Both the position numbers and the translations under genes were made by a program. A stretch of DNA of 64,000 nucleotides from Azolla caroliniana (taxonomy: Eukaryota > Plantae > Polypodiophyta), in NCBI GenBank assembly GCA_043228905.1, contig JBHGNT010000009.1, positions 868,001 to 932,000 on the forward strand, given 5' to 3'. Positions 27,704 through 32,714 of the stretch are shown here, in pieces. Below the pieces are notes generated by a model. The model had not been told where the DNA came from. It was given only the letters and a program-made list of their open reading frames with translations, and did not search any database. The stretch's first letter is position 1. Each line of letters opens with the position of its first letter.

Positions 27704-28093
27704 AAGGAGGAGGAGGAAGGAAGGAAGAATCAGAAATGAATGAATGAAAGGGCATCATTGTTAATAAAGAATACTTCTACTGCTCTCACTTCTCTCTTTC
27801 TCTCTCTCTCTCTCTCTGTGTCTGTGTCTGTGTCTGTGTCTGTGTCATATTACATATATCATACAAATTTACGTTCCCAAGCTCTCTGGCTATGGCGATC
27901 CATGCACATTCCTCGATCTAGCTCCCCCCCCCCCCCCCGCCGTTTTCTTCGTTTTCTCCTTCCTTCCTTCGCTCATCCAGGCAAAACGAAAAAAGAAGAA
28001 GGAAAGAAAAAGGAACAAAAAAAAAGGACAGAAAAGAAAGAAGGAAAATACATCGTTCATTCTTTTTTCTAATTACATATTCTCCATCTTTTG

Positions 28094-28133
<40 letters not shown>

Positions 28134-28296
28134 CCAAGTTCTCTGGCTATGGCGATTGATGCAGAGATATTCAATTTCTCTCTCCCTGATACCATCTAGC
28201 TCCTCTTCCCTGTCTGTGAAATTCAATCCTCTAGCTATAATTATACACTTTCGTTTACGTCTATTTTTTATTTATTCTTAGAGTTAGATTAATTTA

Positions 28297-31200
28297 ATGG
28301 CGGTTGTGGAAAGCTCTGCGGAAGATTTTGCTTTGAATTTAATACCTGCATTGCCTCGTAAATTCTCTCACCATCAAGATGAATTATCAGATCCTGATCC
28401 ATTGGGACAGCATCAGGTGAAGGATCGGTTCCTTCTTCATCATCTCCATAGCCATAGCAATTCTGTTCTTCTCCAAGAAAACAATCTTCATAACGATAGC
28501 AATATTCAGCTTCTTCAGCAAGAAAATATGCTGAAGAAAGATCATTTGGACTTGGAGCGGAATCAGAACATAAATAAGAAGACGGATTCAGCCGCTGCTC
28601 AGTGGAATTATGATGGTTCGTATGAATCAGATCTCGATCCATCAAAGGTAAAGGACCGTTTCCTTCCTCACGATCTTCATAGCCATAACAATACCAATAT
28701 TCATCCTCTCCAGAAAGAAAATACGATTAAGAACCACCATATTGATCTAGATCAGAAACTGAGTGTAGAGAAAAAGAAATACCCAGGAAATCGTGTTCAA
28801 GAAAACAAGGATAATCCTGGTGAATCAGGTCAAGATCCATTGGAGCAGAAGCAACAGAATGAGCAGGTAATGGTCATTTTCATTGGTCTTAATCTTCATA
28901 ACCGCGATCGTTAACTATACTCATATGAGCTCCATTATTCAGCAAGAATGTACGCTGTAGAATCAGCAAGTTGTATAGCTAGATCAGATAATGAATGTAG
29001 GACAGAAGAGAACTCCAACTGATGCTTCAGAAAACAACCATCAAATAAGAATGATATCTTGCATGTACCAATCCTTTACTGAATCAGATCTTGTTCCATT
29101 TGCAGGAACATGATACTTTACTTCTTCATAATCTCCATAGCCATAGTCATCTTCTCCAGCAAGAAAATAAAGAATTTGACCTAGATCAGAATCCGAACTT
29201 ACAACAGAAGAAAGGTCCAGCTGATACTTTAGAACACAATGGTCAAATCAGAGCTACAACATATAGTGGTGATGATGAATACATCTACACCAATGGAAAC
29301 TTAAATGGTGAAAACCGAGGCATAAATAATGGCCAATCAGAAACCTCCAAGACGTCACTTTCTGGTTTGTTAAACCGTGAAAGCATGGGTGTAATCAGTG
29401 GCCAAACAATAACTTTAGAAAATGGAGAAACTCGAGCAGCTGAAGAACCAACAATAACCTCAGGTAATGGAGTTGAAACATCTGAGTGTAGATCAAATGG
29501 AGATCTCCAGAAGCAGTTCAATAAGGATAGTATGCGTGAATTGGAAGATCTCCTCTCAAAACTCAATCCTCTTGCCGAAGAATTTGTTCCTTCTTCCTCC
29601 ACAGTTTCTGAGTCGAACTCGACAGTACATTCCAGCAATCGAAAGGTAAATTTCTCAAAGGATTGGCATTTTTCACATAGGCTGAATGTATGTGCGTGAT
29701 GCTAACATGGCAATTCATTGGCATGCCATATATGCTGAATGTACGTGTATGATGCTAACGTGCATTTCGATGGGTTAAAGATTATGTGTCGTCAAACATG
29801 TGAACATTTGTCAGCATTTTAATGTTATTGTGATTACGACTGCATTCCCATTCGAAAGGTAGTTTCCTCAAAGATTATCGGCGACTCTCAGTGCATTCTC
29901 GTTTGCATTTCGATTCTTCTGAAGGATTTGTATGATCCATCATGTGCATATTTTTGGCATATTAACGTTGTTGTACTTACCAGTGTTTGACAGAAAATGA
30001 CATATTTGCAACTAGCTGTGTTCTATACAATTTTCCAATCTATTATTTCTAATGTCCTGCACTTGCACCAGATCAGGTGCATGAAACTCTGGGAACAACG
30101 TCATGTATTCCTAACCATTCCACTCTGTTTGAATGTTCTTGATGTATTAGAAAAAGAACAACTGTAACGTGGGGCGAAAGAGGTCAAATAGCAGAATGAG
30201 CAAGGCACAATTGGAAGAATGCGTCAGGAGGACAGTCTATGTTTCAGATATTGATCACCAGGTTAGACTCTTTTAATATAGGCATTTAAGCAACCCAAAT
30301 AAATCAAACAAGGCATTATGACCATTAAAGGAACTAACAAATATGTTCCTGTTTCTTTCATAGATCACAGAGGAACAATTAGCATCTCTTTTTCTCTCTT
30401 GTGGCCAGGTGGGTGGTATACTTATTTTCAATGACAGCACACTTGTTATAAAAGTTTAGTTCGAATATTGTTGTGTTTTTGTTATGACAGGTTGTAGATT
30501 GTAGAGTCTGTGGGGATCCAAACTCTGTACTCAGATTTGCATTTGTGGAGTTCACAGACGAAGGTGAGAGACCGAAAGTAAATGAATCAGGGTAGCTTGA
30601 GTTAAGTTTAGACTAGCTCTTTTTGTTGTATTTTTTTAATGTTGACACGTTACAGAGGGAGCAAGGGCATCATTAGGCCTTTCTGGAACTATGTTGGGAT
30701 TCTATCCCCTCAGAGTATTGCCTTCTAAAACAGCTATTCTTCCAGTGAATCCAACTTTTCTTCCACGGGTAAAGTTTGGCGTCATCTATTATTTTATTTT
30801 ACTGCCAGACAATCAAGCTTCTTGTAGAAACCTGAGAAACATTAACCGAAATCAGTTTAATCTGCAGTCAGAAAATGAACGTGAAATGTGCGCAAGAACA
30901 GTTTATTGCACAAATATAGATAAAAAGGTAAAATGCCATCTTTCTAGAAAACAATCACATATACTACAAAATCTGGTTGAGTAAACGTTGCAATTTAGTT
31001 ATTTAAGATGCATCTTGTCCCTAACCTTGTGACTTAGTTGAATCCTCAAATCTGTAATGAACCTGATGTAGAAATTTAGTCTCGACATCTGAATTCCTGA
31101 CTATGCATGCGTAGAATTGCATTTATCATGTCATTATGTAAATTAAGAACGTTTCTCAGGATCAGAGAATATATTGAACTGATTGTGAGTAACCTGTTTT

Positions 31201-32714
31201 GAGTTTTCGATGTAGGTGGCACAAGCTGACATCAAGCTATTCTTTGAGACAGTATGTGGGGAGGTATGTTTGATTTGGTTTCTATTTAAAGCTTTCCTAT
31301 GGAATCCCTAAACATGATATTTTATAAATTGGTGTACGTATTTTCAGGTAGCAAGATTAAGATTGTTGGGGGACTACCGCCATTCAACCCGAATTGCTTT
31401 TGTAGAATTTGTGAGGGTGAGTAAATTACATTGTTGCAATAAGCTATAAGGGGTCTCATCAGTAAGCTGAACATTTGAATAGGTCACAGTGAAGACTCTT
31501 GAACAAATGCTATGAGGATAGACAATTTGTTTGCATGCATTGTACAGATGTAATGCAGTTTTGGGATCTACAATAGTAATCTTAAGAGTGCAGAGGCAAG
31601 CCCCAAACTAAATGTTTTTCTAGGTGGTCATTCATTTACCATGTTACGTTTTGGATTTTACTGACAAACGAGGCAGAAGCATGAAAATGATGAACACTGA
31701 TGAAACAGCGGTCCCATATTTGGAATGGAAATAATCAGTGTGCAGCACTGCAAGGATTTCTTTTTATTCATCCAAACGTTAGGTTAAACAATAAGCCCCG
31801 AAGCCTTGAAGAAATTTCTTGATTAACAATGTTTTCTTTTTTATAAAAGGTGTTGAGTTAGTACTATACAGCAAGAAGATACAAGTCTCAATACCACTAT
31901 GAATTCATGAAAGTGACTGCAAATTGTTTCCAAGTGTCATAAGACTGGACGACTGCAAAGACAAGTCCTGCAGTTATAAAATAGCTTGGAAATAGCAGGC
32001 AAAGAAGATGCTCAGAAGGCATTGTCTGCTTCCTTGTACAAATACACCCTGAAATGGATAGATTAAGTGCCTGCTGCACACTATTTTTAAGTTTGCTCAG
32101 ATTTCAGCCAATGCATACGCAACACTGACATTTTTCTGATATTCAATTTGTGACCTCCTCTGGTTATAGGTGTCAGGAAAACAATTAGAACAATCCTGAA
32201 TGAGTCATGTCTGTACTTCCAAAGAACCCCAATAAATCGTAGACATTTGCACAACACTGAAATACTGAAAGGATAATAATATTTATAGCCAGTTGTAAGT
32301 GCCAGTGAACATGAGATAATTACCATTTCCATTTTGCAAAAATGCTAATATTTATCCTTGTTTTGCTCATAATTGCATATTGCATATTGCATATTTATCG
32401 AGGGACATTTCGTGAAGAAAGCAGTGTAATCTTATCAAAATGCATCTATCAGTTCTGAACGCTGCACTTTTACATTATTCTCTTTTTGTATATTGCACAT
32501 TTATTTTTCACATTGCAGGCTGGAAGTGCAATGGCAGCTCTAAGCTGCAGTGGTGCAATTTTAGGTTCACTTCCTTTGAGGTATAGCTGTTTTATTCTTA
32601 TAACAGTTGCTTTTGTCTCTGTGAGGTGGCATGTTCTAAGAGTACGTTTTCTGCAGGGTAAGTCCATCTAAAACTCCAGTGCGGCCTCGCTCACCTCGTG
32701 TTCTGTTACAATAA
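28297..32714 (+). CDS. Polyadenylate-binding-protein-interacting protein (CID8-13/RBP37 type: PAM2 + two RRMs) with a long repetitive His/Gln/Asn-rich N-terminus, 11 exons, about 582 aa
   Basis: Exons 28297-28866, 29106-29645, 30151-30261, 30364-30408, 30491-30563, 30656-30768, 30868-30927, 31216-31263, 31348-31416, 32519-32580, 32657-32714, all GT-AG with consistent phases. Starts MAVVE; PAM2 LSKLNPLAEEFVP; RRM1 RRTVYVSDID..CGDPNSVLRFAFVEF; RRM2 RTVYCTNIDKK..HSTRIAFVEF; ends RVSPSKTPVRPR. Confidence 0.93.

What the first reader, a model, noticed from the sequence alone, without database searches (positions are those of the whole stretch)
28381..29160. An intron born from a coding tandem repeat in the CID gene
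Seen: the CID N-terminus consists of ~200-260-bp repeat units starting near 28381, 28624, 28822 and 29081 (consensus roughly ESDxDP..QVKDRFLLHxLHSHS..LLQQEN..DLDQxxNxxxK). Intron 1 (28867-29105) spans one unit. Read through, it gives QVMVIFIGLNLHN and, after a frameshift, IQQECTL*NQQVV*LDQIMNVGQKRTPTDASENNHQIR..ESDLVP, a stop-riddled copy of the exonic units. The donor CAG|GTAATG sits at the Q-V-K codons of the unit. The acceptor tgcag|GAA lies at the homologous position in the next unit. Established: tandem duplication of an AGGT-containing exon segment is a proposed but rarely caught mechanism of intron gain. Inference: this is a recent, lineage-specific intron gain (intronization) with its history still readable.
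Basis: partly seen in the sequence, partly recalled or inferred. Interest (0 to 1): 0.8.

Follow-up and report, generated by a model that had tools for sequence, protein, structure and literature searches.

The report
Plant intron made from coding repeat
In a plant gene for an RNA-binding protein, a 239-base intron that is cut out of the messenger RNA is a decayed copy of the protein-coding repeat on both sides of it, so it likely arose when a piece of the gene was duplicated: a known way of gaining introns, here unusually easy to read, but older than several related species.

Summary
Confirmed in the main. The N-terminus of a class D CID gene (PAM2 plus two RRMs) is a four-unit tandem repeat, and unit 3 (28867-29105, 239 nt, GT..AG, phase 0) is a real intron. 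Contigs in 6 of 8 runs laid skip exactly this stretch. A relative's genomic contig (L001) holds it, while transcripts matching L001 lack it, so this is splicing and not a deletion. The intron matches units 1, 2 and 4 (0 of 1000 shuffles reach any score), and both splice sites sit at the same position of the unit. Origin by tandem duplication of an AG|GT-bearing coding segment is therefore likely. Corrections: it is not very recent (units differ 32-44%, the orthologous intron 10%; present in three sequence types); tandem-duplication gain is a documented route; and one-step birth cannot be separated from later intronization here. Distinctive: the unspliced sister junctions keep donors as good as the one used, while only the used junction has a strong acceptor. 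No genomic outgroup was available. The scan noted this kind of intron before on other DNA. New member of a known kind.

The parts
28297..28866 (+). Exon 1 coding part of a class D CID gene (190 codons); holds the lead-in and repeat units 1 and 2
   Evidence: ORF from ATG 28297; covered by spliced contigs
28381..28416 (+). Lead-in half unit (ELSDPDPLGQHQ) ending in the first AG of the AG|GT register
   Evidence: families D9, D13, D2; homologous to P0005
28417..28647 (+). Repeat unit 1 (231 nt, exonic); starts with an unused donor-like CAG|GTGAAG; holds an internal duplication
   Evidence: donor score 10.0 in a small matrix; in frame with acceptor 29105 if used
28648..28866 (+). Repeat unit 2 (219 nt, exonic); starts with an unused donor-like AAG|GTAAAG
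   Evidence: donor score 9.6; in frame with acceptor 29105 if used
28867..29105 (+). Intron 1 = repeat unit 3 (239 nt, GT..AG, phase 0), with frameshifts and 3 stops
   Evidence: skipped in 6 of 8 runs laid; present in L001 DNA; similarity to units
28864..28872 (+). Used donor CAG|GTAATG at the unit's Q-V codon pair
   Evidence: unchanged in L001
29079..29083 (+). Branch-point-like CTGAA, 26 nt before the intron end (candidate only)
   Evidence: pattern scan; the sister units lack the C; not tested as a branch point
29086..29106 (+). Used acceptor, T-enriched, ending TTTGCAG|G
   Evidence: top score of 103 AGs in 28320-29640; joints
29106..29252 (+). Repeat unit 4 (exonic, start of exon 2); its GT has become GA
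   Evidence: D2, D7; blastn 28979-29050 vs 29181-29252, 73.6%, E 1e-6
29106..29645 (+). Exon 2
   Evidence: joints; open frame
29556..29600 (+). PAM2 motif
   Evidence: Pfam PF07145, 25.8 bits, above the cut-off of 20
30151..32714 (+). Exons 3-11, two RRM domains and stop; the spliced product is 582 aa
   Evidence: exon ends from joints; translation and 79.7% identity over 261 aa to P0001; P0001 carries two RRM_1 stretches

Best explanation
Intron 1 of this CID gene is spliced out of the mRNA and is a decayed copy of the coding repeat that flanks it, and it likely arose when a coding segment carrying an AG|GT motif at its Q-V codons was tandemly duplicated, so that the upstream copy's GT became the donor and the downstream copy's AG became the acceptor. 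Shown: homology of the intron to three exonic units, both splice sites in register, splicing, and presence in DNA of related species. Inferred: (1) a single His/Gln-rich coding segment, still seen once in distant CID proteins, was amplified to four units; (2) the copy was probably spliced weakly at first, and the acceptor was then strengthened (more T, a TTTGCAG end, a CTGAA), while the GT behind it decayed to GA; (3) unit 3 has probably been non-coding for most of the time since, gathering frameshifts and stops that now make splicing obligatory; (4) all this predates the split of the window's species from L001's and from that of run X8.
For: Similarity: 0 of 1000 shuffles reach the scores against U1, U2, U4; 0 of 500 for the L001 intron against its own units; no match elsewhere in the 64-kb window. 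Register: D2. Splicing: joints in X1, X15, X2 and X13, X14, X5, six studies; 5 of the 6 have 31 or more letters on both sides. X2's contig joins ten introns and X5's joins exon 2 to exon 3, so they are mRNA. All 40 difference rows shown for X13/X5 match L001, and the totals over 28288-28862 are 41 and 41, so the DNA with the intron and the RNA without it are the same sequence type. An X1 contig one letter from the window also crosses the joint (tables 4, 5, 8; read from the depths and lengths). Coding ancestry: the first unit aligns with P0005 (57.5% over 40 aa, E 3e-8 pairwise) and weakly with the single His/Gln stretch of P0001/P0002. Mosaic pattern expected from a duplication across the junction: the middle of the intron scores best against U4 (205 vs 151 and 99), its 3' end against the upstream unit ends (81-88 vs 57). 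Long non-coding history: longest stem in the unit tree (0.30 vs 0.14-0.25); private changes 0 synonymous, 15 non-synonymous in the window.
Against: No genomic outgroup without the intron was found, so gain is inferred from homology, not from presence and absence. The order of duplications is unresolved: the AU test rejects none of 3 topologies (p 0.22-0.72); informative sites favour U3+U2 (5) over U3+U4 (1) and U3+U1 (1); the intron's 5' part scores better against U1 and U2 than against U4 (150, 147 vs 109), which a clean U3/U4 duplication would not predict. The excess of non-synonymous changes is not significant in L001 (4 vs 16, Fisher p 0.37), and exonic U4 shows 0 vs 8 too; the exons themselves are barely constrained (changes by codon position 11/13/16). 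The splice matrix comes from only 9 introns, and true acceptors score as low as -1.3 in leave-one-out, so the weakness of the sister acceptors (-1.4, -1.2, 2.1) is suggestive only. Only X13 is on record as RNA, and its joint has 26 letters on the short side.
Confidence: 0.75

Rival explanations
1. Late intronization: unit 3 was translated as part of a four-unit array for a long time, then a stop or frameshift arose, or mutations built the acceptor, and the latent AG|GT sites present in every unit were recruited to remove it.
For: Exonic units 1 and 2 are multiples of three (231, 219 nt); the intron keeps the repeat frame without a shift from LDQ to ESDL; only the used junction has a strong acceptor, which looks derived; the four units form an unresolved star.
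Against: Unit 3 has the longest stem and no excess of synonymous private changes; 3 stops per species fit neutral decay over 0.2-0.3 changes per site (1.8-2.5 expected per 70 codons), though the test is weak; no sequence with an open unit 3 was found. The frame continuity depends on the alignment near AATCCT.
Confidence: 0.15
2. An older intron stood here first and was filled or overwritten by repeat sequence, or the repeat spread in non-coding DNA and units 1, 2 and 4 were later recruited into the exon.
For: No genomic outgroup was seen, so an ancestral intron is not excluded; the locus has other 210-260-bp duplications in non-coding DNA; the N-terminal exons are weakly constrained.
Against: The intron is repeat-like from its first base to its last, both splice sites included; unit 1 is homologous in frame to P0005 and continues through the Q-V site without a break (whether P0005 comes from DNA or RNA is unknown); the His-rich core is better kept among exonic units (8/45, 9/38, 11/38 mismatches) than against the intron (21/45, 17/45, 15/38).
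Confidence: 0.07
3. Not an intron: the skipped form is a genomic deletion in other organisms, an assembly collapse, or reverse-transcriptase template switching at the 5-nt repeat GCAGG, and the window's copy is a broken gene.
For: The joint has 5 letters that fit either side; all runs laid are contigs, none raw reads; no DNA and RNA from one individual.
Against: L001 DNA holds the segment while transcripts of the same sequence type lack it; the ends are GT..AG and conserved in two species; the skip is the only form in 6 runs of six studies; units are only 56-68% identical, too far apart for a collapse of 31-letter words; retention would stop the protein at 205 aa, before PAM2 and the RRMs, which are intact.
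Confidence: 0.02

Closest known systems
[quoted passage not shown]
   Same: Intron is homologous to flanking coding sequence; donor and acceptor lie at the duplicated AG|G position; splicing keeps the frame.
   Different: Part of a four-unit array, not a single duplication; units are 32-44% diverged; the downstream GT has decayed to GA; the acceptor looks improved after the event. In ATP2A1 the source similarity is inferred, and the rebuilt duplication was spliced at only 6-16%.
Fission yeast SPOG_01682 and SOCG_00815 introns inside 24-nt coding repeats (PMC3629103, passages read)
   Same: Intron made of whole units of a coding tandem repeat, with a proto-splice site in every unit; EST support.
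   Different: There 24-nt units and AGGC; here 200-260-nt units, one unit per intron, support from six studies and DNA from relatives.
Potato RdRp intron gain by tandem duplication (PMC4974935, part 1 of 5 read)
   Same: Plant intron born by tandem duplication with a readable source.
   Different: There the duplication crossed an existing intron-exon boundary and inherited the acceptor, branch site and pyrimidine tract; here the source is purely coding, and no old intron supplies the 3' signals.
Intronization of exonic sequence (PMC3443670 passages; Drosophila cases of duplication followed by intronization, PMC2891723 passages)
   Same: Formerly coding sequence now spliced; frame remnants and stops inside; acceptor differs from sister copies.
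   Different: Both sites coincide with a motif that duplication supplied; no ortholog with the segment still exonic was found.
Class D CID proteins, Arabidopsis CID8-CID13 (PMC4574140, passages read)
   Same: PAM2 followed by two RRMs.
   Different: 582 aa against 175-416 aa in that survey, owing to a repeat-expanded N-terminus.

Membership tests
[quoted passage not shown] | Intron sequence is homologous to the flanking exonic sequence | tested here: met
   0 of 1000 shuffles; 0 of 500 in L001
[quoted passage not shown] | Donor and acceptor lie at the duplicated AG|GT motif, in register | tested here: met
   D2; donor CAG|GT, acceptor CAG|GA (GT decayed); sister units keep AG|GT; 1 of 6 frame-restoring AGs
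[quoted passage not shown] | The segment is spliced out | tested here: met
   6 of 8 runs laid; DNA and RNA of one sequence type
[quoted passage not shown] | Intron is a mosaic of the downstream exon start and the upstream exon end, and its removal restores the pre-duplication protein | tested here: inconclusive
   middle and 3' end fit, 5' part does not; topology unresolved
[quoted passage not shown] | Splice signals were sufficient at the moment of duplication | tested here: inconclusive
   sister donors score 10.0 and 9.6, sister acceptors -1.4 to 2.1 vs 13.0 for the used one; matrix from 9 introns only
[quoted passage not shown] | Outgroup orthologs lack the intron at this position | not testable with these tools
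   no plant genomes held; scans gave only L001 (with the intron) and L002 (an intronless CID record); P0005 reads through the site but its DNA could not be fetched
Intronization of exonic sequence | An ortholog keeps the segment as open, translated exon | tested here: inconclusive
   none found; all searches shallow for this lineage
Intronization of exonic sequence | The segment evolved under coding constraint before becoming an intron | tested here: inconclusive
   private changes 0/15 (40 codons, window) and 4/16 (45 codons, L001) vs exonic 10/21 and 12/24; Fisher p 0.019 and 0.37
Intronization of exonic sequence | A splice site was forged by mutation | tested here: inconclusive
   acceptor context has 8 T in 17 nt vs 1-4 in sister junctions, but the AG itself is ancestral
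Class D CID (CID8-13) | PAM2 motif | tested here: met
   PF07145 above cut-off
Class D CID (CID8-13) | Two consecutive RRM domains after PAM2 | tested here: met
   indirect: 79.7% over 261 aa to P0001, which has two RRM_1 stretches

The most novel reading that the evidence does not exclude
The array is a natural before-and-after series of intron birth: four sister junctions share one AG|GT motif, all kept a usable donor except the last, and only the one that gained a plant-type acceptor became a splice site. This would show that acceptor gain is the limiting step in duplication-born introns, bridging the duplication and intronization models in one gene. The two unused, in-frame donors would then also allow isoforms with one, two or three His-rich units ahead of PAM2.
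Probability: 0.25. Interest if true: 0.65.

Novelty: new member of a known kind. Interest (0 to 1): 0.5.

Why it matters
Most gained introns have no traceable source (PMC4974935 introduction), and the best-known plant case inherited its 3' signals from an old intron. Here the source is purely coding, splicing is shown, and three unspliced sister copies sit beside the intron as built-in controls. That makes a specific question testable with a minigene: which changes turn a duplicated AG|GT into a working intron. It does not add a new mechanism, and it is one gene.

Tried and rejected
No whole genome is held for the window. Protein searches for the repeat: exon 1 against longer proteins, 0 of 387 candidates; exon 2, 2 of 810, both without the repeat; HMMER over 1.84 billion representatives, 3 hits; first 130 aa, 2 of 2 candidates, both known already. 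Pfam finds nothing in exon 1 at E 0.1. Scan of prokaryotic genome contigs: 0 of 141 pattern matches confirmed. Run X4 does not cover the junction, which says nothing. No joint from donors 28417 or 28648 was listed in 8 runs, but contigs drop rare forms, so this is no evidence of absence. Ordering the duplications by tree, informative sites and AU test failed. Counting stops against a neutral simulation does not separate early from late intronization. The codon count dropped alignment columns beyond 212 and every codon with a gap, leaving 40 and 45 codons. A transposon or foreign source was considered: the intron matches only the repeat array in the window. A paper search on template-switch artefacts gave nothing of use.

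Full report
The gene. An ORF starts at ATG 28297. With exon ends taken from the joints, eleven exons give a 582-aa protein. It has a PAM2 motif (PF07145, 25.8 bits) and is 79.7% identical over 261 aa to P0001, which carries two RRMs. This is a class D CID (CID8-13 type; PMC4574140, passages read). That paper finds PAM2 in this class only in land plants, so the window is likely a land plant. No call names the lineage; my recalled, untested guess is a fern.

The repeat. Four units follow each other: a 20-nt family at 28383, 28623, 28821 and 29080, and a 39-nt ungapped family starting with AGG at 28415, 28646, 28865 and 29104. Cut at that motif, unit 1 is 28417-28647, unit 2 is 28648-28866, unit 3 is 28867-29105 and unit 4 starts at 29106. 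Unit 3 scores 272, 337 and 306 against units 1, 2 and 4; 0 of 1000 dinucleotide shuffles reach any of these, and four control intronic stretches score 88-192. The L001 intron behaves the same (0 of 500 for each unit). In the 64-kb window the intron matches only the array. Read in the repeat frames it has 3 stops and shifts frame near both ends.

Splicing. I laid 8 of the 16 runs listed; all are contigs. Six (X1, X15, X2, X13, X14, X5; six studies, four organism labels) skip exactly 239 nt with GT..AG ends, five of them with 31 or more letters on both sides. X13 is the only run on record as RNA and has 26 letters on the short side. X4 does not reach the junction. X8, flagged as probably DNA, runs through the intron in one 789-nt contig whose only gaps lie in exon 2. 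A skip in another organism could be a genomic deletion, so I needed DNA and RNA of one type. L001, a genomic contig 94% identical to the window, has the same 239-nt intron with GT and AG. All 40 difference rows shown for X13 and X5 (40 of 139 rows) are L001's differences, and the totals over 28288-28862 are 41 and 41. So DNA has the unit and mRNA lacks it. An X1 contig one letter away from the window also crosses the joint, as read from depths and lengths in tables 4, 5 and 8.

Age. Units differ from each other by 32-44%, orthologous units of the window and L001 by 5-10%. The intron differs by 10%, like other introns of the gene (7-11%), the exons by 7%. The stem to the two intron copies is 0.30 against about 0.05 for each tip. 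The intron is thus several times older than the species split, and all its indels are shared. 'Recent' holds only against the age of the gene family.

Direction. Distant CID proteins begin with the same MAVVE and one His/Gln-rich stretch, with no repeat (P0001, P0002; pairwise E 0.05 and 5, so weak). P0005, a 78-aa fragment, matches the lead-in and unit 1 and reads through the Q-V site. The unit was therefore likely coding before it was amplified. I could not obtain genomic DNA of any outgroup, so absence of an older intron is not shown.

How it was born. A duplication across the junction predicts an intron that resembles the downstream exon start, then the upstream exon end. The middle of the intron is closest to unit 4 (205 vs 151 and 99) and its last 50 nt to the upstream unit ends (81-88 vs 57), but its first 94 nt score better against units 1 and 2 (150, 147 vs 109). 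Trees do not settle it: AU p 0.22-0.72 for three topologies, informative sites 5:1:1 for unit 3 with unit 2. For timing, private changes in the intron are 0 synonymous and 15 non-synonymous over 40 codons in the window (Fisher p 0.019 against exonic units), but 4 and 16 over 45 codons in L001 (p 0.37), and exonic unit 4 shows 0 and 8. Three stops fit neutral decay (1.8-2.5 per 70 codons expected at 0.2-0.3 changes per site) without excluding a coding phase. A matrix from the gene's 9 other introns scores the unused donors of units 1 and 2 at 10.0 and 9.6, above the used one (7.1), while the used acceptor (13.0) is the best of 103 AGs and the sister junctions score -1.4, -1.2 and 2.1. True acceptors score as low as -1.3 in leave-one-out, so this is a hint. 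I read it as: duplication supplied both sites, the donor came ready, the acceptor was tuned afterwards, and the unit has mostly decayed as an intron (0.75). Late intronization after a long coding life gets 0.15, an older intron or exonization 0.07, artefact 0.02.

Known cases. Tandem-duplication gain is an established route: reviewed with 188 tabulated events, many imprecise (PMC3443670; passages and section 8); rebuilt in human cells at 6-16% splicing (PMC3265369; part 1 of 4); seen in fission yeast coding repeats (PMC3629103; passages), Drosophila (PMC2891723; passages) and potato (PMC4974935; part 1 of 5). Rogers 1989 I know only through these papers. No supplements were read; lists of plant events in supplements could include relatives of this case. 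A search for CID, PAM2, RRM and intron gain together found 0 papers, and the listings show no title on this gene; the library lacks most subscription journals. The scan's own notes hold several introns of this kind in other genomes and none on similar sequence.

Verdict. A real intron with a readable coding-repeat origin: a new, well-supported member of a known kind. Its value lies in the three unspliced sister junctions that serve as controls. Interest 0.5.

Noticed in passing
window 27877-27906 and 28134-28163: A second duplication upstream of the start codon, 257 nt apart (90% over 30 nt, each behind a TC run); 0 of 500 shuffles reach it; both copies are also in L001.
   Followed up: partly
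window 29636-29660 and 29849-29873: The end of exon 2 with its donor appears again 213 nt downstream inside intron 2 (84% over 25 nt). Significant in the window (0 of 500) but not in L001 (92 of 500). A possible spare donor; the locus seems prone to 200-260-bp duplications.
   Followed up: partly
window 28417 and 28648: Unused donor-like sites, both in frame with acceptor 29105 (689- and 458-nt skips); no such joint listed in 8 runs of contigs.
   Followed up: partly
window 28454-28528: Unit 1 holds a short internal duplication (spacing 42-45 nt) that repeats the LLQE/LLQQE motif.
   Followed up: no
runs X1, X15, X14 laid on window 28478-28866: Each holds two sequence types, one with 1 difference from the window and one with 17-28; hybrids, polyploids or mixed samples. 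X2 shares a label with X5 and X13 but is a different type (31 vs 41 differences).
   Followed up: no
window 28297-29645: The two N-terminal exons evolve almost without codon bias between the window and L001 (changes by codon position 11/13/16 and 15/11/13) yet stay open.
   Followed up: partly
window 30767-31215: One X1 contig (depth 4.8) may skip the 60-nt exon 7; the tool marks the letters between as not known.
   Followed up: no
window 28136-28156 and 28442-28462: The duplicated upstream motif is 81% complementary to the His-rich repeat core (I9); probably chance, not tested.
   Followed up: no
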